Source of the DNA: Escherichia phage SmurfNell
Length of the DNA: 64,000 nt
Sequence record: OR896824.1
Reading direction: 5' to 3' (one strand)
Below are positions 1-64,000 of the stretch, piece by piece (within the stretch, counting starts at the first letter, position 1; each line of letters opens with the position of its first letter). The notes under the pieces are model-generated. The model made no database searches. It saw nothing but the letters and a program-made list of their open reading frames with translations, and was not told where the DNA came from. A program made the position numbers and the translations under genes.

Positions 1-1317
1 ATGAAAGTCTCTAGAGACTATATTAACACCACAGATGTTATTGACTTTGGTATTGACAAACGATTCTTCCGTCTGCCAGTCTCTAGCATTCTAGCTCAAG
101 AGGGGATTACACCTAATGCCCCTCAGATTGCAATCATTAATGCGCTGGAAGACCCAAGACACCGCTTCGTGACTGCATGTGTATCACGTCGTGTAGGTAA
201 GTCATTCATCGCATATACACTTGGGTTCCTAAAACTTCTGGAACCCAATGTGAAGGTGCTGGTAGTTGCACCTAACTACTCACTGGCTAACATAGGTTGG
301 TCACAGATTCGTGGTCTTATTAAGAAGTATGGATTACAGACTGAACGTGAGAACGCAAAAGATAAAGAGATTGAACTAGCGAATGGTTCTCTCTTTAAGC
401 TGGCTTCTGCGGCGCAGGCTGACTCCGCGGTTGGTCGTTCATATGACTTCATCATTTTTGACGAAGCAGCGATTTCCGACGTTGGTGGTGCAGCTTTCGA
501 TATTCAGTTACGTCCTACTCTAGATAAGCCAAACTCTAAAGCTCTGTTTATTTCCACACCTCGTGGTGGTAACTGGTTTAAAGAGTTCTATGAGAAAGGA
601 TTTAACGAAACGCTACCTAACTGGGTATCTATTCATGGTACATATCGTGATAACCCACGTGCTGATCTGAACGATATCGAAGAAGCGCGTCGTACTGTTA
701 GTAAAAACTACTTCCGTCAAGAATATGAGGCTGACTTCTCTGTATTCGAAGGTCAGATCTTTGACACCTTCAATGCTATCGAACATGTTAAAGACCTCAA
801 AGGTATGCGTCACTTCTTTAAAGATGATGAGGCTTTCGAAACATTACTTGGTATCGACGTTGGTTATCGTGATCCTACAGCAGTTCTTACTATTAAGTAT
901 CACTACGATGAAGATGTTTATTACGTGCTGGAAGAATATCAGCAAGCTGAAAAGACTACAGCTCAACACGCTGCTTATATCCAACACTGCATAGATCGTT
1001 ATAATGTTGATCGTATATTTGTAGACTCCGCTGCTGCTCAGTTCCGTCAGGACTTAGCATATGAACATGAGATCGCTTCTGCACCCGCTAAGAAATCTGT
1101 CCTAGATGGTTTGGCATGTCTGCAAGCACTGTTCCAGCAAGGTAAGATCATCGTAGATGCTTCATGTACTTCATTGATCCATGCCCTAGCGAACTACAAG
1201 TGGGACTTCCAGGAAGGCGAAGAGAAATTATCACGTGAAAAACCACGTCATGATGCGAACTCTCACCTTTGTGACGCACTGCGCTATGGGATTTACTCAA
1301 TTTCCCGTGGGAAATAA
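1..1317 (+). CDS. terL: Terminase large subunit
   Basis: 438-aa ORF with Walker A-like VSRRVGKS and Walker B-like DFIIFDEAA motifs; sits at the head of a colinear head/tail module; start coincides with window edge. Confidence 0.85.
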   Translation: MKVSRDYINTTDVIDFGIDKRFFRLPVSSILAQEGITPNAPQIAIINALEDPRHRFVTACVSRRVGKSFIAYTLGFLKLLEPNVKVLVVAPNYSLANIGWSQIRGLIKKYGLQTERENAKDKEIELANGSLFKLASAAQADSAVGRSYDFIIFDEAAISDVGGAAFDIQLRPTLDKPNSKALFISTPRGGNWFKEFYEKGFNETLPNWVSIHGTYRDNPRADLNDIEEARRTVSKNYFRQEYEADFSVFEGQIFDTFNAIEHVKDLKGMRHFFKDDEAFETLLGIDVGYRDPTAVLTIKYHYDEDVYYVLEEYQQAEKTTAQHAAYIQHCIDRYNVDRIFVDSAAAQFRQDLAYEHEIASAPAKKSVLDGLACLQALFQQGKIIVDASCTSLIHALANYKWDFQEGEEKLSREKPRHDANSHLCDALRYGIYSISRGK

Positions 1318-1431
1318 ATAAGTATAGGATGGGATACTACTCAGTTGGTATCCCATTCCTGCATTTTAAAATCCCCTTTACAAATTCGACATGATTATGT
1401 ATACTATATTCATACAGTTGAGGAGAATACT

Positions 1432-1869
1432 GTGGCAGGAAATGTAAAATATAAACGTGATGCTATATCACTCATGCGAGACGGTATAAAAAGTCAATAT
1501 AAAAAAGCCGATCGCTGCGAAATCTGTGGTTGTGGTGAAGAATTAGAGCTTCATCATTACCATACAGTGTCTCTACTAGTTAAAAAATTTGCTAAAGAAC
1601 TCCAATTGGATTTCACTGACGAAGAAACAGTCCTCTCAAATAGGACGGCATTCTATGAAAGATATAGGCATGAGCTAGTAGATGACACTGTTACCCTTTG
1701 TGTCCACCATCACCAACTATTACATAAGGTGTACACTAAGGAACCTCCCCTTTTTTCTGCTAATAAGCAGAAGGCATGGGTTCTTAAACAAAAGGAAAAG
1801 CTACAGAATCCTCAAGAAAAGACACAAGTCAAGACTGAAACTAAATCAGGATTCGCAAGGTTCTTATAA
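1432..1869 (+). CDS. HNH (His-Me finger) endonuclease
   Basis: CEICGCG...HHYH...CVHHHQLLH zinc/HNH motifs; start moved to GTG at 1432 because GAGGAG lies 6 nt upstream and the longer ORF has no SD; inserted between terminase and portal. Confidence 0.6.
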   Translation: MAGNVKYKRDAISLMRDGIKSQYKKADRCEICGCGEELELHHYHTVSLLVKKFAKELQLDFTDEETVLSNRTAFYERYRHELVDDTVTLCVHHHQLLHKVYTKEPPLFSANKQKAWVLKQKEKLQNPQEKTQVKTETKSGFARFL

Positions 1870-3086
1870 TGGGTTTAAAAAGCTGGATTACTGAAAAGCT
1901 AAATCCGGGTCAACGTATTATAAGAGACATGGAACCAGTTAGTCATCGCACTAACCGTAAGCCATTTACCACTGGACAAGCCTACAGTAAGATTGAGATT
2001 CTCAACCGAACTGCTAACATGGTTATCGATAGTGCGGCGGAGTGTTCTTATACTGTCGGAGATAAATATAATATTGTCACGTACGCTAATGGCGTCAAGG
2101 CAAAGACTCTAGACACTCTCTTAAATGTACGACCTAATCCATTCATGGATATAAGCACATTCCGTAGACTTGTAGTCACTGACCTACTTTTTGAGGGTTG
2201 TGCATACATCTATTGGGATGGCACAGCACTTTACCATGTCCCTGCTGCACTAATGCAAGTAGAGGCAGATGCCAATAAGTTTATCAAAAAATTCATATTT
2301 AATAACCAGATAGACTATCGCGTAGATGAGATTATCTTTATAAAGGATAACAGTTACGTGTGTGGCACAAACTCCCAAATTTCTGGACAATCTCGTGTTG
2401 CTACAGTTATTGACTCTCTTGAGAAGCGTTCTAAAATGCTTAACTTTAAAGAGAAGTTCCTCGATAACGGCACTGTGATTGGTCTTATTCTTGAGACGGA
2501 TGAAATCCTGAACAAGAAATTGCGTGAGCGTAAACAAGAAGAATTACAACTCGATTATAATCCTAGTACGGGTCAGTCTACTGTCCTGATTCTAGATGGT
2601 GGTATGAAAGCAAAACCGTACTCCCAAATATCCTCTTTTAAAGATCTAGACTTCAAGGAAGATATCGAAGGATTTAATAAATCCATCTGTCTTGCCTTTG
2701 GTGTTCCGCAAGTGTTACTTGATGGAGGTAATAATGCTAACATTCGACCAAACATCGAATTGTTCTATTATATGACTATCATTCCTATGCTGAACAAGCT
2801 GACTAGTTCTCTTACTTTCTTCTTTGGCTACAAGGTTACTCCTAATACTAAGGAAGTAGCTGCACTGACGCCAGATAAAGAAGCTGAGGCTAAACATTTA
2901 ACCTCTTTGGTTAATAACGGTATCATGACTGGTAACGAAGCTCGTGAAGAGCTTAACCTTGAACCTTTAGATGATGAGCAGATGAATAAGATTCGTATTC
3001 CTGCTAACGTTGCTGGTTCTGCAACAGGTGTATCTGGTCAAGAAGGTGGTAGACCGCAAGGCACTGCCGATGGGGATAAAGAATGA
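1869..3086 (+). CDS. Portal protein
   Basis: 405-aa ORF directly after terminase, start overlaps upstream stop (ATAATG); size and position match the T5 portal as I recall it. Confidence 0.75.
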   Translation: MGLKSWITEKLNPGQRIIRDMEPVSHRTNRKPFTTGQAYSKIEILNRTANMVIDSAAECSYTVGDKYNIVTYANGVKAKTLDTLLNVRPNPFMDISTFRRLVVTDLLFEGCAYIYWDGTALYHVPAALMQVEADANKFIKKFIFNNQIDYRVDEIIFIKDNSYVCGTNSQISGQSRVATVIDSLEKRSKMLNFKEKFLDNGTVIGLILETDEILNKKLRERKQEELQLDYNPSTGQSTVLILDGGMKAKPYSQISSFKDLDFKEDIEGFNKSICLAFGVPQVLLDGGNNANIRPNIELFYYMTIIPMLNKLTSSLTFFFGYKVTPNTKEVAALTPDKEAEAKHLTSLVNNGIMTGNEAREELNLEPLDDEQMNKIRIPANVAGSATGVSGQEGGRPQGTADGDKE

Positions 3087-40796: not shown

Positions 40797-40854
40797 ATTT
40801 TTCGATTTCCTTAATTAAGAATTAAACAGAATAGTTCTTTCAAACTATGAGAAT

Positions 40855-40883
40855 ATTATATCAAGAATTACAGGATTAAGCAA
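40855..40883 (-). promoter_or_regulatory. Sigma70-type promoter
   Basis: Minus strand TTGCTT, 17-nt spacer, TATAAT. Confidence 0.55.
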
Positions 40884-40903
40884 CTGAAATTTTTCAGTAA
40901 CTG

Positions 40904-41158
40904 CTACACATCTAGTTCAACGATCTCCCAATCGTCGGCCAGAGCTTCGTCTAGAGTTAGCTCAGTGGTTTTCCACGATGCATCGTCTAGCGTGAGTTTA
41001 GTACGCCCATCTTTAGACCACCACCAAGTAAATTCTATAATGTCGTTATTATCAACATCTACTTTGATGATAGTGGTAGAATAAGTATTATTTTCCCAGC
41101 TATCTCGCTGGAGATATTTTACGTCTCCAGCTTTTAACAGACCAGTTAGTTTACTCAC
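40904..41158 (-). CDS. Hypothetical small protein
   Basis: 84 codons from GTG with AAGGAAAA SD upstream. Confidence 0.4.
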   Translation of the reverse strand: MSKLTGLLKAGDVKYLQRDSWENNTYSTTIIKVDVDNNDIIEFTWWWSKDGRTKLTLDDASWKTTELTLDEALADDWEIVELDV

Positions 41159-41855
41159 GGCGTTTTCCTTTCTCTTTATCGAGTTTCAAGGCAGCTTTAA
41201 CAGCTTCATTAACCAATGTGATAACTTCTTCACGGCTCCACTTAAAGCCCAGAGCCTTAACATCAACTCCCAGCTTTTCCAGATGTTTAACAGAAGCTAA
41301 TTCGTAGTGCATATAGTGAACGTTCTGTTGTTTACCTTCTGATAACAACCAAACACGATAGCAACCAACTGGGTTAGTCATTGCTTTCTTGATTTCACCA
41401 ATACACTGATAGCCAGGAACCCAAACAAGTTCACCAACTTCAAATTCCTCTGCCATTGCATCATCAGGAATCAATGGAGGATTCAATGGATCAACAATAT
41501 CATTTAAACGAAGCAGAGCACCGTAACGTTCCAGGACAGATTTAATCATCGCTACAGAACGATAATTACGATCAGCAATTTCTTCAAAAGAATCACCAGA
41601 AAGATACTGTTCAATTACGTTTGCAAGCTCAACACCTTCAATCAGTGTTCCACGCTTCTTCTTTTTCATTTCCGCAACTTGAACCTGACGATCTCTCCAT
41701 TCCTCGATCATTCGTTCCATAGTTGGGTTAGAAGAAACACCGAGCATTTCACATGCTACTTTCTTAGTACCACCATTCTCCAGATGTTCAATGACCTTTT
41801 TAAAGGTTTCATCAGGGATTTCATGGATAAGTTTCTTTCTACGAGAACCAGCCAT
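41151..41855 (-). CDS. Putative HTH DNA-binding protein
   Basis: 234 aa; TKKVACEMLGVSSNPTMERMIEEW helix-turn-helix-like N-terminus; SD GAGAGGAG. Confidence 0.5.
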   Translation of the reverse strand: MAGSRRKKLIHEIPDETFKKVIEHLENGGTKKVACEMLGVSSNPTMERMIEEWRDRQVQVAEMKKKKRGTLIEGVELANVIEQYLSGDSFEEIADRNYRSVAMIKSVLERYGALLRLNDIVDPLNPPLIPDDAMAEEFEVGELVWVPGYQCIGEIKKAMTNPVGCYRVWLLSEGKQQNVHYMHYELASVKHLEKLGVDVKALGFKWSREEVITLVNEAVKAALKLDKEKGKRRE

Positions 41856-41886: not shown

Positions 41887-41915
41887 ATTATACAGAAAAT
41901 TTTTCCTGAAAGCAA
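41887..41915 (-). promoter_or_regulatory. Sigma70-type promoter
   Basis: Minus strand TTGCTT, 17-nt spacer, TATAAT, leader AGATTCATAAATTTGAGAGAGGAG. Confidence 0.6.
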
Positions 41916-47515: not shown

Positions 47516-47678
47516 ATTCTCCCTCCTTAATAAGGAACTCTTTCCATTCTGCTGTATCCTCATAGATAACGCAGAAATCATCACTCTTCCATGAGAAGTC
47601 ATCAGTAGCAAATTCGAAACGGTAGCACCAACTACCATCTGGCCATACTAAAAGATCACACATGCTTTTCTGGGACAT
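47496..47678 (-). CDS. Hypothetical small acidic protein
   Basis: 60 codons from ATG 47678 with GGAGGG SD 8 nt upstream. Confidence 0.45.
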   Translation of the reverse strand: MSQKSMCDLLVWPDGSWCYRFEFATDDFSWKSDDFCVIYEDTAEWKEFLIKEGEYGEEDF

Positions 47679-48507
47679 AAATATTTCCCTCCATAAAAGC
47701 TTCAACTTGATCAATAAAGTGTTTATTACCAAAAACTTCGGCAGCTCCAGCACGCCATACAGTAACACCACGTTTCTCATACTCAAGCTGTTCGTCATAA
47801 CGAACTTGTGGGTTAACAACCATCATCTTAGTTCCACGACATACAGCAGGAAATAATTCCCAGTTGAAGTTGATAACTTGGTTACTACAACCCACCACAA
47901 TAACCATGTCATTGCTAGTAAGAGTATCAAACAGGTTGATTTGACCCATGTACCACGGAGCTGTCTCACCAAAGAACACCACGTTTGGTTTTACCCATTC
48001 GTAATCTTCAGGGGCAATCGCAGTATACCCAACATCTTCGATGATTTGATTGCGACCCTGATGATAGATCACCTCTTTCAAGTACCCGTGAGCGTGAATG
48101 ATTTCATCACGAGGGATACCAGCACGTTCCAGAAGGTCATCAACGTTAGTAGTGAAGTTCTTCACGCTACCCGCATCATAACGCTGGAACCATTCTGCAA
48201 TTCGCAGATGGGCAATGTTAGGCTCAACAGTCTGTAGTTCCTGACGACGCATGTTGTAGAACTCATGAGTCTTGAGATACAGATCGTTACCATCTTCATC
48301 AATGCCAGGGAAACGAGCGCTGAAGTAGTTAGGATCATCTTCACCACAGAAGCGACGGAAGCCAGCTTCAAAGTTAGGCAAGCTACATACTTCCTCTAGA
48401 TCGTACTCATCCCACAAAGATTTTCCACTAGCAGTATCAGTACGGAAAGCACGAACACCACTATCTACACTCAAACCTGCACCACTAACAACAATTAGTC
48501 TACGCAT
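47656..48507 (-). CDS. Sir2 (sirtuin)-family protein lacking zinc ribbon
   Basis: VSGAGLSVDSGVRAFR, TTNVDDL, IIHAHG, PNVVFFGE, VIVVGCS motifs; no CxxC pairs between HG and VVFFGE; SD AAGGAA. Confidence 0.75.
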   Translation of the reverse strand: MRRLIVVSGAGLSVDSGVRAFRTDTASGKSLWDEYDLEEVCSLPNFEAGFRRFCGEDDPNYFSARFPGIDEDGNDLYLKTHEFYNMRRQELQTVEPNIAHLRIAEWFQRYDAGSVKNFTTNVDDLLERAGIPRDEIIHAHGYLKEVIYHQGRNQIIEDVGYTAIAPEDYEWVKPNVVFFGETAPWYMGQINLFDTLTSNDMVIVVGCSNQVINFNWELFPAVCRGTKMMVVNPQVRYDEQLEYEKRGVTVWRAGAAEVFGNKHFIDQVEAFMEGNIYVPEKHV

Positions 48508-61499: not shown

Positions 61500-62201
61500 A
61501 TGAAATTCAAGCCCTTTGGTATGCTGGACATTGAATCTCTAGGTACTCCAGGAAATTGCGGTACTACTCATATTGCAATGCCTTCTTTCGCTTTTGTAGC
61601 GATGCACGGAATTGATAAAGATCCTGATCTGGTATTCGTTACTCTAGACGTTCAAGATCAGCTTAATGCGGGTGCTAAGGTAACTGCCTCTACTATTGCA
61701 TTCTGGATGGATCAAGCTAAAAACAGTCCATCTGCGCTCCATATTATGGAGGCTCTAAATGGTCGTAATCCTAAGCTGATTGCCTTCCGTGATGGTAAGC
61801 ATCACTGCACTAATGACGTAGGCTCTAATTATGCTGCCTTCTCTATGGCTCAGAACATTATGGAATTGTCTCTAGGAGATAATGCTCTGTATTACGGCAA
61901 TGGCCCAGAGTTTGATATGACAATCTACTCTGCAAATACGTTCCATGCCGGAACCCATGAAGAAATAGTTCCGTGGAAATTCTGGAACTTAGGTAACGTT
62001 CGATCTTTCCGTAATCAGTGGATGCAAGCTGGTTATAGCTATAAAGATCTAGAAGCCGAAGGTGCTAGCTGGGCAAAAGCTAAAATGGAAAAGATGGACA
62101 CCATTCGTTATGGAATCTATCCTGTGAAGCATGATCCAGCATTCGATGCTTTAGTTGAAAGTTATTGTGTAGCCGTCATGATCGAAAAAATCAAAATTTG
62201 A
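61500..62201 (+). CDS. DEDDh-family 3'-5' exonuclease (DnaQ-like fold)
   Basis: Exo I MLDIESLG, Exo II-like GNGPEFDM, Exo III HDPAFDA (H-x4-D). Confidence 0.65.
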   Translation: MKFKPFGMLDIESLGTPGNCGTTHIAMPSFAFVAMHGIDKDPDLVFVTLDVQDQLNAGAKVTASTIAFWMDQAKNSPSALHIMEALNGRNPKLIAFRDGKHHCTNDVGSNYAAFSMAQNIMELSLGDNALYYGNGPEFDMTIYSANTFHAGTHEEIVPWKFWNLGNVRSFRNQWMQAGYSYKDLEAEGASWAKAKMEKMDTIRYGIYPVKHDPAFDALVESYCVAVMIEKIKI

Positions 62202-62454: not shown

Positions 62455-62508
62455 TAGGCCGTTTTTAAAACAAATTCAAATCTCAAACTTCATATAAGGA
62501 AGCAAATA

Positions 62509-63147
62509 ATGACTACTCGTATCTCTAAAACTCGTGCTCTGGCAACTATCAAGTCTCTGGAAGCTAAAATCCGTAAAGCTACTGAACAACAGCTTTTGAT
62601 CGCTGTTGGTGAAGGTAAGGACAAGAACCAAGTTGTCGTTGGCGCTGCAATCGAAGTAGATGCTCTGTCTACTCGTATTAAGACTGATTTCCAGTCTCTG
62701 CTGGATATGATGTCCCAGCGTGATCAGCTGAAAGCTGCGCTGATCAAGAGCAATGCTGAAACTGTTGTAGAGATCGGTTCTCGCTCTATGACTGTTGCGG
62801 AAGCAATCGAAGCTAAGCGTTCTATGGAACTCAAAGCTCAGTTGCTGGCTAACATGCGTAAGCAGTTCCATGCTGCTACTGTTAAGTTTAACACTCAGAA
62901 GGCTCAGTTTGACGCCAAGTATGAGCGTCTGCAGGATACCATGGCTACCCGCGACAAGAAGACTTCCGAGGATGAAGTTAAGATGCAGCTTAACCTGCTG
63001 GAACTCAAGAACACTCCGTTCCTGATCGATCCGCTGGAGCTAGAAAAGCTGATCAAGCAACACGACGAAGAATACCAGGACTTTGCAACTAACGTTGACT
63101 TTGTTCTGTCTGAGTCCAACGCCTCTACTTTCATCGAAGTAGAGTAA
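62509..63147 (+). CDS. Hypothetical highly expressed early protein
   Basis: 212 aa, helical, host-optimal codon usage; SD AAGGAAG. Confidence 0.55.
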   Translation: MTTRISKTRALATIKSLEAKIRKATEQQLLIAVGEGKDKNQVVVGAAIEVDALSTRIKTDFQSLLDMMSQRDQLKAALIKSNAETVVEIGSRSMTVAEAIEAKRSMELKAQLLANMRKQFHAATVKFNTQKAQFDAKYERLQDTMATRDKKTSEDEVKMQLNLLELKNTPFLIDPLELEKLIKQHDEEYQDFATNVDFVLSESNASTFIEVE

Positions 63148-63527
63148 TAATTTAAAAGACTAGTAAATCGGTAGACGAAAGCCCAAGCATCTTACCTCGC
63201 AGCAGCGGTTGAAATACGAGGTTAAATAAGACCGCTGACCATACTATAAAGTATAATCTATTGGAGATTATGTTTATTACACCAGCCTCTTAAGCTGAAC
63301 TGTAAAAACGGTCGTTGGTAGTACCAACACAACTTCAAAGATCAACGCTCAAGTATGAAAGCTGAAAAGTTAAAAGAACTCAAACTTCTAACCTTCTAAA
63401 GCTAAAAGATGCAAAGTATTCGTTGATGATTCAAACCCTAGATCAAAGGTACATGGCTCATAAGATATGGCCTGTGGCGCCTCTAGGCTGTTTATCGGTT
63501 CACTAGTCTCTCAATTTAAAAATGTAT

Positions 63528-63556
63528 TTGCTAATTAGTTTAGTTTTCTATATAAT
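63528..63556 (+). promoter_or_regulatory. Sigma70-type promoter
   Basis: TTGCTA, 17-nt spacer, TATAAT, then ATATTTTTAAATTGATGAGACGAGG. Confidence 0.6.
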
Positions 63557-63586
63557 ATATTTTTAAATTGATGAGACGAGGCTATT

Positions 63587-63904
63587 ATGATTTTTCATAT
63601 TCTGATTGATGATGTTCGTGACCTGCATGGGATGGATATTATCATTCGAACCCCCGAAGCCGCTATTGAGTTTCTGAATACAACCGATACCACCGGACAT
63701 TTCGTTTATATGGATAATGATCTGGCTGTAGATGGTATGGAAGGTTATCAAATTCTTCGTTTACTCCTAGAATTTGGACAGAGACCCAAGAAAGTGGTAC
63801 TAGTAACCTCGAACCCTGTAGCTAAGCAGAACATGCGTAATGATTTGCTTGACGAAGGGTATCAAGAAAGCCCTAATCGTATTGAGTACGATTGGCCGGA
63901 GTAA
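63587..63904 (+). CDS. Stand-alone receiver (REC/CheY-like) domain protein
   Basis: HILIDDV (acidic pocket), FVYMDNDLAVDGMEGYQILRLL (phospho-Asp plus MDG-type motif), KVVLVTSNP (Thr-switch-like) in CheY order; conserved Lys not obvious. Confidence 0.45.
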   Translation: MIFHILIDDVRDLHGMDIIIRTPEAAIEFLNTTDTTGHFVYMDNDLAVDGMEGYQILRLLLEFGQRPKKVVLVTSNPVAKQNMRNDLLDEGYQESPNRIEYDWPE

Positions 63905-63909
63905 ATAAA

Positions 63910-64000
63910 ATGAAGGCAGCTTTGCTTCTAATAGCTGCCCTAACCTATAGCTTCAATAGTCATGCTACCTACGACTCAAAGCAGATTGATTGCATTGCAA
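63910..64000 (+). CDS. Secreted/periplasmic protein, 5' partial (signal peptide)
   Basis: MKAALLLIAALTYSFNSHA-TYDS reads as a Sec signal peptide with AxA-like cleavage site; ORF runs off window end. Confidence 0.3.
   Translation, partial: MKAALLLIAALTYSFNSHATYDSKQIDCIA

What the first reader, a model, noticed from the sequence alone, without database searches (positions are those of the whole stretch)
63587..63904. Stand-alone receiver-domain-like protein with its own strong promoter
The 105-aa protein has the ordered CheY-fold motifs (N-terminal acidic pair in HILIDDV, central D in VYMDNDL followed by DGMEG, then LVTS) but no output domain and no obvious conserved Lys. A phage-borne single-domain response regulator could act as a phosphate sink or decoy for host two-component signalling. 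It sits after a 440-bp noncoding region and just before a signal-peptide gene.
Basis: inference. Interest (0 to 1): 0.5.

Follow-up and report, generated by a model that had tools for sequence, protein, structure and literature searches.

The report
Phage cREC receiver-fold enzyme gene
This small early gene of a T5-type phage belongs to the already described but never tested "cREC" family, a stripped-down receiver-like fold predicted to cut cyclic phosphates on RNA or NAD-derived molecules, not to interfere with two-component signalling.

Summary
The ORF (63587..63904, +, 105 aa) is real, and so is its near-consensus promoter. The protein is not a Response_reg receiver: it matches Pfam PF20274 cREC_REC (E=1e-15, 58.6 bits against a cutoff of 27) and is the orthologue of phage T5 gene T5.084.

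D8, D9, R11, R21, D43, D45, G53 and N76 are near-invariant across 193 relatives below 55% identity.

I found no histidine kinase partner. No paper held in the searched library reports an experiment on the family. The published prediction is a phosphoesterase for 2',3'-cyclic RNA ends or cyclic ADP-ribose derivatives.

The phosphate-sink or decoy idea is not supported. The family is already known. Interest is moderate, because the protein is untested and sits in a model phage.

The "440-bp noncoding region" upstream is more surprising. It is a covariation-supported structured RNA of about 370 nt with Y-RNA-like hallmarks. It always follows a conserved 212-aa gene and has no Rfam match.

The parts
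63528..63556 (+). Sigma-70 promoter of the T5 early class (TTGCTA, 17-nt spacer, TATAAT), with an A-rich upstream tract and the shared downstream box ATAtttttAAATTGAtGAG
   Evidence: Consensus scan gives 10 of 12. It is one of 14 same-architecture sites in the window. A promoter is annotated at the equivalent place in T5 RefSeq. It is absent in My1, where cREC lies elsewhere.
63578..63581 (+). Ribosome-binding site GAGG, 5 nt before the ATG
   Evidence: Read directly from the sequence.
63587..63904 (+). cREC_REC protein gene (105 aa), orthologue of T5.084 and bas29_0075. Putative catalytic residues are D8, D9, R11, R21, D43, D45, T74, S75 and N76.
63910..64000 (+). Start of the SleB-like (Hydrolase_2) cell-wall hydrolase gene with a hydrophobic N-terminus. 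It is probably co-transcribed with cREC (5-nt gap, no terminator-like site reported between them) and runs off the window.
   Evidence: The adjacency is broken by a homing endonuclease gene in Ace and is absent in My1.
63148..63518 (+). Neighbouring, separate feature: a conserved structured RNA. Closing helix 63148-63177 with 63489-63518. GACGAAAG motif 63174-63181. Pseudoknot stems 63194-63199/63217-63222 and 63203-63210/63230-63237. Seven AAAG repeats between 63337 and 63416. 3' domain 63437-63487.
62509..63147 (+). 212-aa helical protein gene (PHROG 1491, labelled 'tail fiber protein'; the label is doubtful). It always lies directly upstream of the structured RNA.
61500..62201 (+). Gene annotated 'putative metallopeptidase' that matches the Rv2179c-like 3'-5' exoribonuclease domain. 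Together with the RNA it gives this neighbourhood an RNA-processing flavour.
   Evidence: PF16473, E=1.3e-7, 31.9 bits against a cutoff of 27.

Best explanation
The gene encodes a stand-alone member of the cREC family (Pfam PF20274) and is the orthologue of phage T5 gene T5.084. This much is shown here:
- It has a minimal receiver-type alpha/beta fold: five strands and three helices, with no alpha1 and no alpha5.
- It has a strongly conserved acidic pocket: D8-D9 after strand 1, D43-x-D45 after strand 3, T74-S75-N76 after strand 4, plus R11 and R21.
- It lies behind a promoter of the T5 early class that host RNA polymerase should read, apparently as a two-gene unit with a SleB-like hydrolase gene.

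The rest is inferred. The protein is probably a small phosphoesterase, not a signalling switch. D43 would attack a phosphate. D8 and D9 would hold a metal ion, as in receiver domains. D45 would act as general acid/base, as the Asp+2 does in HAD phosphatases, so the enzyme turns over. R11, R21 and N76 would replace the missing Lys and bind the phosphate or nucleotide.

The most likely substrates are the ones proposed by the family's describers: cyclic phosphates, either 2',3'-cyclic ends of RNA cut by host anticodon or toxin nucleases, or cyclic ADP-ribose-type products. The protein would then serve RNA repair or counter-defence early in infection.
For: Identity:
- Pfam cREC_REC E=1e-15, 58.6 bits against a cutoff of 27, covering profile positions 2-86 of 88.
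- PHROG 1479.
- Relatives about 90% identical are already named cREC domain proteins by UniRef and NCBI.
- T5.084 is 91% identical.

Fold:
- AlphaFold2 model with pLDDT 93.3 and pTM 0.85.

Active site:
- Invariant D8, R11, D43, G53 and N76 in 67 sequences.
- In 193 relatives below 55% identity: D8 192, D9 192, R11 181, R21 189, D43 190, D45 192, G53 192, T or S at 74 in 192, N76 190.
- D43 aligns with CheY D57 and T74 with T87.

Expression: promoter evidence.

Selection: the Ace allele is only 61-68% identical in DNA inside 96-100% identical flanks. A relative of similar divergence (P0029, 58-59% amino-acid identity) keeps all the pocket residues.

Functional prediction: Iyer et al. 2021 and 2022 predict cyclic-phosphate processing linked to RNA ligases, sirtuin, Nudix and 2H genes (PMC7824862; PMC9503650).

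Context here:
- An Rv2179c-like exoribonuclease gene 1.4 kb upstream.
- A structured Y-RNA-like element directly upstream.
- A SIR2 gene at 47656..48507(-).
- In the closest record, NMN adenylyltransferase plus PnuC, a polynucleotide kinase and about 27 tRNA genes.
Against: - No cREC protein has been tested experimentally. The 2022 paper says so, and three literature searches found nothing newer.
- In 14 non-redundant viral loci I found no recurring neighbour. No Pfam family occurred more than twice among 135 neighbour proteins, and none of the 25 families listed was an RNA ligase, Nudix, 2H or sirtuin family. The published context argument was therefore not reproduced for this stand-alone clade.
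- The only operon partner here is a cell-wall hydrolase.
- No RNA ligase is annotated in the closest phage record.
- The adjacency to the RNA and the exoribonuclease is confined to the T5 group.
- The describers call the site metal-independent, whereas I infer metal binding from the D-D pair. Neither view has been tested.
- The hhalign match to the CheY sequence has low probability (8%).
Confidence: 0.5

Rival explanations
1. One reading: a single-domain response regulator that takes phosphate from host histidine kinases (a sink) or occupies them (a decoy), dampening host two-component signalling.
For: Receiver-like fold. The acidic pair and the acceptor Asp are in the canonical places. It is a stand-alone protein expressed early.
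Against: There is no Response_reg profile hit at E<=10. Helices alpha1 and alpha5 are missing; from established kinase-regulator complex structures these are the docking surface. The conserved Lys is absent. D45 (Asp+2) is near-invariant, which points to turnover chemistry. The family is reported never to occur with histidine kinases. The family occurs in phages of unrelated hosts, from Vibrio myoviruses to T5-like phages, which argues against tuning to particular host kinases.
Confidence: 0.04
2. A non-catalytic binder (sponge) of a nucleotide-derived immune signal, working like the small phage sponges of the Tad and Acb families: abundant early expression and a conserved polar pocket that sequesters rather than cleaves.
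For: The protein is small (105 aa) and has a strong early promoter. The pocket is conserved. Genes with Tad3 and Acb3 domains occur within a few kb of cREC genes in two unrelated phage contigs. Alleles are exchanged within otherwise identical genomes, as is common for counter-defence genes.
Against: The conserved residues are those of a phosphoryl-transfer site (D-D, D-x-D, T/S), not a typical binding cage. I have no evidence of oligomerisation. PADLOC gave no match, though that library holds defence proteins rather than anti-defence proteins.
Confidence: 0.15
3. A housekeeping small-molecule or nucleotide phosphatase serving the phage's nucleotide metabolism, for example acting on (d)NMPs or acyl phosphates rather than on cyclic phosphates.
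For: In T5-like phages the gene lies in the early block with ribonucleotide reductase, dihydrofolate reductase, thymidylate synthase and RNase H. Neighbours in other phages include thymidylate synthase, DHFR, dCMP deaminase, ribonucleotide reductase, adenylosuccinate synthetase and NAD kinase. The HAD-like D-x-D chemistry fits simple phosphomonoesterases.
Against: These large phages pack many auxiliary genes together, so proximity is weak evidence, and no single metabolic partner recurs. T5-like phages already carry a dNMP monophosphatase and other phosphatases.
Confidence: 0.15
4. A partner or regulator of the downstream SleB-like cell-wall hydrolase with which it appears to be co-transcribed.
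For: The two genes are 5 nt apart with no terminator-like site reported between them. A SleB-like gene also lies directly upstream of a cREC gene in an unrelated viral contig, L016.
Against: A homing endonuclease gene separates them in Ace. In My1 the two genes are 2.8 kb apart. Only 1 of 14 other loci has a Hydrolase_2 neighbour. cREC has no obvious signal peptide (my reading of the sequence) whereas the hydrolase has a hydrophobic N-terminus, so they would sit in different compartments.
Confidence: 0.04

Closest known systems
cREC_REC family (Pfam PF20274; Iyer, Anantharaman, Krishnan, Burroughs and Aravind 2021; members include T5.084 and, according to the T5 record note, KVP40.0304)
   Same: Full-length profile match above the curated cutoff. 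Same motifs: LIDDxR, D[HN]DLG and V[TS][SA]NPV. Same stand-alone size of about 100 aa. Same phage habitat and no kinase partner.
   Different: Nothing that defines the family differs. In the T5 group the Gly after D-x-D-L is Ala (A47), and the C-terminal [FWY]-x-[RK] seen in most members is Y-D-W. The linkage to RNA ligase, Nudix, 2H or sirtuin genes reported for other members is not seen next to this gene.
CheY-like receiver domains of two-component systems (Pfam Response_reg, PF00072)
   Same: Flavodoxin-like fold. Acidic pair after strand 1, Asp after strand 3 and Thr/Ser after strand 4, all in equivalent positions.
   Different: No profile match. No alpha1, no alpha5 and no Lys. An extra invariant Asp+2, Arg11, Arg21 and Asn76. 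No kinase found. This is resemblance of fold and chemistry, not membership.
HAD-superfamily phosphatases (functional analogy only)
   Same: An Asp nucleophile followed by Asp+2 (D-x-D), a Thr/Ser and an acidic metal-binding pair. The similarity between receiver and HAD active sites is established knowledge; its application here is my inference.
2H phosphoesterases (LigT and related enzymes; functional analogue named by the family's describers)
   Same: Predicted to do the same job: opening 2',3'-cyclic or 1''-2''-cyclic phosphates in RNA repair and ADP-ribose processing.
   Different: The fold and catalytic residues are unrelated (two His-x-Thr motifs). 2H activity is demonstrated experimentally; cREC activity is not.
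Bacterial Y RNAs YrlA/YrlB (Rfam RF02553; Chen et al. 2014). This comparison concerns the neighbouring RNA, not the protein.
   Same: A long helix closing the 5' and 3' ends. The GNCGAAN0-1G motif on the 5' strand (GACGAAAG, 63174..63181). Distant homologues L097 and L100 carry a permuted tRNA-like module that matches the YrlA model at E about 1e-6.
   Different: No Rfam hit for the window copy even at E<=10. No Ro60/TROVE gene is annotated in the closest phage record. The element is about 370 nt with a pseudoknot and AAAG repeats that are not part of the features the YrlA paper describes. It is partnered with a 212-aa helical protein.

Membership tests
cREC_REC (PF20274) | Profile score above Pfam's gathering threshold over the whole domain | tested here: met
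   58.6 bits against 27, E=1e-15, profile positions 2-86 of 88.
cREC_REC (PF20274) | Conserved aspartates shared with receiver domains (D-D after strand 1, D-x-D after strand 3) plus [TS][SA]N after strand 4 | tested here: met
   D8, D9, D43, D45, T74, S75 and N76 are present. They are near-invariant in 193 relatives below 55% identity.
cREC_REC (PF20274) | Receiver-like Rossmannoid fold | tested here: met
cREC_REC (PF20274) | Never associated with a histidine kinase | tested here: met
   No kinase among the 209 annotated features of the closest record, nor among neighbours in 14 other loci.
cREC_REC (PF20274) | Gene-neighbourhood link to RNA-repair or NAD+/ADP-ribose-processing genes | tested here: inconclusive
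   There is no such gene in the operon. SIR2 is about 15 kb away. In the closest record, NMNAT and PnuC are about 3.5 kb downstream and a polynucleotide kinase lies further off. An exoribonuclease gene and a Y-RNA-like element are adjacent. No recurrent partner was found in 14 other loci.
cREC_REC (PF20274) | Hydrolysis of cyclic phosphates (the predicted activity) | not testable with these tools
   Needs enzyme assays. The literature states the family is uncharacterised.
Two-component receiver domain (Response_reg, PF00072) | Match to the Response_reg profile | tested here: not met
   No hit at E<=10. A profile search of PDB sequences gives response regulators only at E about 0.2 to 2.
Two-component receiver domain (Response_reg, PF00072) | Complete (beta-alpha)5 fold including alpha1 and alpha5 | tested here: not met
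   The model has strand 4-7, then a 10-residue loop, then strand 18-20 (no alpha1). It ends with short strands instead of alpha5.
Two-component receiver domain (Response_reg, PF00072) | Acidic pair, phospho-acceptor Asp and Thr/Ser at the ends of strands 1, 3 and 4 | tested here: met
   D8/D9, D43 and T74. hhalign aligns D43 with D57 and T74 with T87.
Two-component receiver domain (Response_reg, PF00072) | Invariant Lys after strand 5 (CheY K109) | tested here: not met
   The aligned position is S95. Only 26 of 193 relatives have Lys there.
Two-component receiver domain (Response_reg, PF00072) | Cognate histidine kinase or phosphotransfer partner | tested here: not met
   None is annotated in the phage. 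Use of host kinases cannot be tested here.
Y RNA / YrlA (RF02553), for the neighbouring RNA at 63148..63518 | Covariance-model score above the gathering threshold | tested here: not met
   No hit at E<=10 in the window. Homologues L097 and L100 score 42-44 bits against a threshold of 69, and only over the tRNA-like module.
Y RNA / YrlA (RF02553), for the neighbouring RNA at 63148..63518 | Helix formed by the 5' and 3' ends, carrying the GNCGAAN0-1G motif | tested here: met
   The main closing helix has 21 counted pairs, 12 of them with compensatory changes, plus a 5-pair outer extension. GACGAAAG lies at 63174..63181. The motif is defined in PMC4201824.
Y RNA / YrlA (RF02553), for the neighbouring RNA at 63148..63518 | Encoded within about 4 kb of a Ro60/TROVE gene | tested here: not met
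   No TROVE protein is annotated in the closest record. The conserved neighbour is a 212-aa helical protein with no Pfam domain.

The most novel reading that the evidence does not exclude
The cREC protein of T5-like phages works together with its upstream neighbours: the Rv2179c-like 3'-5' exoribonuclease, the 212-aa helical protein and the roughly 370-nt Y-RNA-like structured RNA. Together they would form a phage-encoded RNA repair or quality-control module, a viral counterpart of the bacterial rsr-yrlBA-rtcBA operon. In it, cREC would open the 2',3'-cyclic phosphate ends left on phage or host tRNAs by defence nucleases.
Probability: 0.15. Interest if true: 0.8.

Novelty: already known. Interest (0 to 1): 0.4.

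Why it matters
The cREC family was predicted in 2021 to be a new class of cyclic-phosphate-processing enzyme built on the receiver fold. No paper held in the searched library reports an experimental test.

This copy is the orthologue of T5.084. It sits in a classical model phage and in the BASEL collection phage Bas29. It is intact, has its own strong promoter and is only 105 aa long, which makes it a convenient entry point for a first biochemical test.

If the prediction holds, receiver-fold domains would gain a catalytic role outside signalling, and T5-like phages would gain a defined counter-measure against RNA-cutting or nucleotide-signalling defences.

As a genome-scan finding it is ordinary. 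The family is in Pfam, and near-identical proteins already carry its name. The structured RNA next to it appears to be undescribed and deserves its own follow-up.

Tried and rejected
- **NCBIfam and PADLOC:** no match for the protein.
- **PDB sequence search with the family profile:** the top hits were TAL effectors. These are sums of many weak repeat matches to 'VVAIASN' and are an artefact.
- **Foldseek against afdb50:** the library was not available.
- **The search for related loci with the 67-sequence alignment:** it failed because no stretch was conserved enough. I used a 12-sequence subset instead.
- **Genome scan:** only 9 loci were found, mostly contigs from metagenome-assembled genomes. 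The subfamily searched is therefore rare in cellular genomes.
- **Neighbour survey:** no recurrent family.
- **Linkage test by tblastn:** the 212-aa protein and the exoribonuclease are not linked to cREC outside the T5 group.
- **'T5 ORF079' (55 aa):** I suspected a disrupted gene in T5. The RefSeq T5 record has an intact 105-aa T5.084, so the short ORF is an annotation variant.
- **Klebsiella phage Sugarland:** the 30-80 kb portion examined lacks cREC, the 212-aa gene and the RNA, so it added no diversity.
- **Rfam and ARAGORN on the intergenic region:** nothing found.
- **Covariance model of the whole RNA:** not attempted, because at about 370 positions it exceeds the calibration limit.
- **Literature searches for T5.084 and for T5 stable or noncoding RNAs:** nothing relevant.

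Full report
**1. Observation**

The window comes from a T5-like phage (Demerecviridae, Epseptimavirus).
- Positions 62500..64000 are 100% identical to Escherichia phage SuperGirl (Bas29), where the ORF is bas29_0075, 'hypothetical protein'.
- Elsewhere the window differs from that record. The first 3 kb are only 99.1% identical to the best-matching phages, and the coordinate offset changes.
- It has a GAGG ribosome-binding site 5 nt before the ATG.
- It is preceded by TTGCTA-17 nt-TATAAT at 63528..63556.
- The downstream gene starts at 63910. It has a hydrophobic N-terminus and a Hydrolase_2 (SleB-like) domain.

All the descriptive statements in the finding are correct.

**2. Identity**

- Against Pfam the protein matches PF20274, cREC_REC ('Cyclic-phosphate processing Receiver domain'), at E=1e-15 and 58.6 bits (cutoff 27) over nearly the whole profile. 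Response_reg does not appear even at E<=10.
- It matches PHROG 1479 (unknown function) at 1.7e-30. It matches nothing in NCBIfam or PADLOC.
- Relatives about 90% identical are already named 'cyclic-phosphate processing receiver domain-containing protein' by UniRef and NCBI.
- The orthologue in phage T5 is T5.084: 105 aa, 91% identical, annotated as 'similar to KVP40.0304' with a promoter annotated directly upstream.
- An exhaustive HMMER search of 1.84 billion representatives finds 240 clusters at E<=1e-3. Nearly all are stand-alone proteins of about 100 aa.
- Among sequenced phages the gene is present in about 440 T5-like records and about 50 Vibrio phage records.
- A scan of 185,579 species genomes with a subfamily profile found only 9 loci, mostly contigs from metagenome-assembled genomes.

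**3. Structure**

- With a 67-sequence alignment, AlphaFold2 gives a confident model (pLDDT 93.3, pTM 0.85). Its elements are strand 4-7, strand 18-20, helix 23-32, strand 39-42, helix 53-62, strand 69-72, helix 77-90, a short strand at 93-94 and strand 100-102.
- It is a reduced version, however. A 10-residue loop replaces alpha1, and there is no alpha5.
- No solved structure of a family member exists. The PDB sequence search returned only artefactual TAL-repeat hits and marginal response regulators.

**4. Active site**

- In 193 family members less than 55% identical to the query, these positions are almost invariant: D8 (192), D9 (192), R11 (181), R21 (189), D43 (190), D45 (192), G53 (192), P67 (180), T or S at 74 (192), N76 (190) and Y92 (174).
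- So the acidic pair, the acceptor Asp and the Thr/Ser are kept. The Lys is not: only 26 of 193 relatives have Lys at that position.
- The family adds an invariant Asp two residues after the acceptor, two arginines and an asparagine.
- From established knowledge of HAD phosphatases, an Asp+2 next to the nucleophile acts as the general acid/base that makes the phospho-aspartate turn over. My inference is that cREC is built for catalysis, not for holding a signal.
- Also from established knowledge, alpha1 and the beta5-alpha5 face are where histidine kinases dock. Their absence argues against the sink or decoy idea.

**5. Expression and local organisation**

- The promoter belongs to a family. 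A pattern search finds 14 TTG[AC]xx-(16 to 18)-TATAAT sites in the window. Most have an A-rich upstream tract and a downstream ATA..TAAATTGA box. One of them, at 41915..41887(-), resembles what I recall as the classic T5 N25 promoter.
- The T5 record annotates named early promoters (P-H207, P-D/E33) on either side of T5.084 and an unnamed one directly in front of it.
- The gene is therefore very probably transcribed early by host RNA polymerase, together with the SleB-like hydrolase gene 5 nt downstream.
- That pairing is not conserved. In phage Ace a homing endonuclease gene sits between the two genes. In Pectobacterium phage My1, cREC lies 2.8 kb away, directly after another ORF and before the exoribonuclease gene.
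- The promoter-bearing last 80 nt of the intergenic region are absent in My1. In the one outgroup examined, the promoter therefore goes with the cREC gene.

**6. Evolution**

- SuperGirl and Ace are 96-100% identical on both sides, but only 61-68% identical across the cREC gene. A 528-nt homing-endonuclease insertion is next to it.
- A third allele, about 51% amino-acid identity, occurs in SHSML-45 and its relatives. There it is read as a 273-aa HNH-cREC ORF.
- A relative about as divergent as the Ace allele (P0029, 58-59% identity) keeps all the pocket residues.
- Divergent alleles are therefore swapped into an otherwise fixed backbone while the putative active site is kept. This shows purifying selection on function. 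It is also a pattern often seen for accessory and counter-defence genes.

**7. What is known, and what I could reproduce**

- The family was defined by Iyer et al. (2021, PMC7824862). They describe it as a divergent receiver domain never found with histidine kinases, linked to NAD+/ADP-ribose-processing and RNA-ligase genes, and predicted to process cADPr or 2',3'-cyclic phosphates.
- Their 2022 paper repeats the prediction, lists Nudix fusions and sirtuin-centred neighbourhoods, and states that cREC remains experimentally uncharacterised (PMC9503650).
- Three further searches found no experimental work.
- I took 14 non-redundant viral loci of a related stand-alone subfamily and scanned 135 neighbour proteins within six genes of cREC. 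No Pfam family occurred more than twice. None of the 25 families listed was an RNA ligase, Nudix, 2H or SIR2 family.
- What does appear is a mixture of nucleotide-metabolism genes, single Tad3, HD_4, Rv2179c-like and Hydrolase_2 genes, and an Acb3 gene in another contig.
- The published context argument is therefore not visible for this clade.
- This phage does carry a SIR2 gene (47656..48507, -). In the closest record there are also an NAD-dependent ligase, NMN adenylyltransferase plus PnuC, a polynucleotide kinase, phosphatases and about 27 tRNA genes. No RNA ligase is annotated.

**8. Mechanism and rivals**

My best reading has confidence about 0.95 for the identity and about 0.4 for the mechanism. 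The protein is an early-expressed, Asp-based phosphoesterase acting on cyclic phosphates of RNA ends or ADP-ribose derivatives, used for RNA repair or counter-defence.

The rivals are:
- a non-catalytic signal sponge (0.15);
- a plain nucleotide or small-molecule phosphatase serving the surrounding nucleotide-metabolism genes (0.15);
- a partner of the SleB-like hydrolase (0.04);

None can be settled without enzyme assays and phage genetics, which are listed under next steps.

**9. Side finding: the 'noncoding region' is a structured RNA**

*Conservation*
- Positions 63148..63527 are at least 90% identical in 439 of 448 phage records.
- The region still aligns with many invariant blocks in My1 and DU_PP_V, although the 212-aa protein upstream is only 38-41% identical there.

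*Structure*
- Both strands fold better than shuffled sequence (z = -4.1 for + and -5.3 for -).
- RNAalifold on seven sequences from three lineages predicts 87 pairs, 32 of them with compensatory double changes.
- I tested a trimmed structure of 66 pairs that includes an H-type pseudoknot. It is 95.8% paired against 84.4% in shuffles (0 of 500 shuffles reach it). It has 30 pairs with changes on both sides against 11.9 in shuffles (0 of 500). Controls with the partners slid by 1-3 columns give 31-43% paired and 2-6 such pairs. The structure was derived from these same sequences, which is a caveat.
- By my reading, the G-U pairs fit the + strand.

*Distant homologues*
- A metagenome scan with the 212-aa protein found homologues at 33-38% identity.
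- Seven of the nine have a clear long closing helix of unrelated sequence directly downstream; two (L099, L103) are ambiguous.
- They share conserved junction motifs and AAAG-rich repeats. Four give nhmmer matches to the T5-group profile, down to E=6.6e-7.

*Features in the window*
- The closing helix pairs 63148-63177 with 63489-63518.
- The window has 7 AAAG copies in 91 nt, against 1.0 expected.
- The 5' strand of the closing helix ends in GACGAAAG (63174..63181). This fits GNCGAAN0-1G, the proposed Ro60/Rsr-binding motif of bacterial Y RNAs (PMC4201824).

*Relation to Y RNAs*
- Two distant homologues (L097, L100) contain a permuted tRNA-like module that matches Rfam YrlA at E about 1e-6, below the gathering score.
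- The window copy has no Rfam match even at E<=10, and ARAGORN finds no tRNA.
- The same stretch is unannotated in T5 RefSeq.

*The partner protein*
- The 212-aa protein has no Pfam domain.
- It is labelled 'tail fiber' in PHROG 1491 and UniRef.
- It has at least 604 clusters of homologues.
- It is predicted to be a helical bundle with no informative structural match.

*Assessment*
- I regard the RNA as a real, apparently undescribed structured RNA family paired with this protein. Whether it is a true Y RNA is open.
- Its position next to cREC and 0.9 kb from an Rv2179c-like exoribonuclease gene recalls the bacterial rsr-yrlBA-rtcBA repair operon. The linkage to cREC is confined to the T5 group, however.

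**10. Verdict**

- The gene belongs to an already described and already annotated family whose biochemistry is still only predicted.
- Interest is moderate. The neighbouring RNA is the more novel object.

Noticed in passing
window 63148..63518 (+): The 'noncoding' gap upstream of the gene is a conserved structured RNA of about 370 nt. It has a 26-30 bp closing helix, an H-type pseudoknot, several hairpins and an array of AAAG repeats. The GACGAAAG motif at 63174..63181 fits the Y-RNA Ro60-binding consensus. Covariation support: 30 of 66 pairs have compensatory changes, with 0 of 500 shuffles reaching that. There is no Rfam hit, and the equivalent stretch is unannotated in T5.
   Followed up: yes
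window 62509..63147 (+); loci L097-L105, L026, L058: The 212-aa protein, labelled 'tail fiber protein' in PHROG 1491, UniRef and RefSeq, is a helical bundle with no Pfam domain and at least 604 clusters of homologues. In nearly every lineage examined, down to 33% identity, it is followed directly by a copy of the structured RNA. The tail-fibre label looks wrong; the protein and RNA appear to form a module.
   Followed up: partly
L097 2264..2328 and L100 2265..2329: In two distant metagenomic homologues of the RNA, a circularly permuted tRNA-like module (T-arm, closed acceptor stem, D-arm) is inserted. It matches Rfam YrlA (Y RNA-like) model positions 23-87 at 42-44 bits and E about 1e-6, below the gathering score of 69.
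   Followed up: partly
window 63587..63904 compared with L024 (phage Ace) and L025 (SHSML-45): Alleles are replaced at the cREC locus. Ace is 96-100% identical to the window in both flanks but only 61-68% identical across cREC, with a 528-nt homing-endonuclease gene inserted just after it. In SHSML-45 and its relatives an HNH endonuclease is read in frame with a third cREC allele as a 273-aa ORF.
   Followed up: partly
window 61500..62201 (+): The gene annotated 'putative metallopeptidase' (or 'exonuclease' in T5) matches the Rv2179c-like 3'-5' exoribonuclease domain (PF16473, E=1.3e-7). The metallopeptidase label is probably wrong.
   Followed up: partly
window, e.g. 51906, 55504, 58599, 60356, 62203 and 63528 (+); 49221, 41915, 40883, 39665 and 38299 (-): A family of at least 14 near-consensus promoters, most with the same architecture: an A-rich upstream tract, TTGCTx, a 17-nt spacer, TATAAT and a downstream ATA..TAAATTGA box. 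The site at 41915..41887(-) resembles what I recall as the classic T5 N25 promoter.
   Followed up: partly
L016 5578..6323: In an unrelated 28-kb viral contig, a SleB-like (Hydrolase_2) gene lies directly upstream of a cREC gene. This is a second, independent adjacency of the same two families, in the opposite order. It is unexplained and may be chance.
   Followed up: no
L026 5724..5750 and L058 1493..1520: In My1 and DU_PP_V a GC-rich hairpin followed by a T run (CTGCCCTAGAGATAGGGCAGTTTT) sits between the stop codon of the 212-aa gene and the RNA's closing helix. In several metagenomic copies (L097, L100, L101, L105) the closing helix itself is followed by a T run. The helix may therefore double as a terminator and define the RNA's 3' end.
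   Followed up: no
L038 1..567 (T5 record 40848..41566): T5 RefSeq annotates 'rnaX', a stable RNA of unknown function, about 2 kb downstream of T5.084. It lies outside this window and is distinct from the structured RNA described here.
   Followed up: no
window 1..3000 and 47656..48507: The window is not co-linear with the SuperGirl record throughout. The first 3 kb are only 99.1% identical to the best-matching phages, and the coordinate offset changes from +185 to -434. The source is therefore a mosaic relative. A SIR2-family gene lies at 47656..48507(-).
   Followed up: partly
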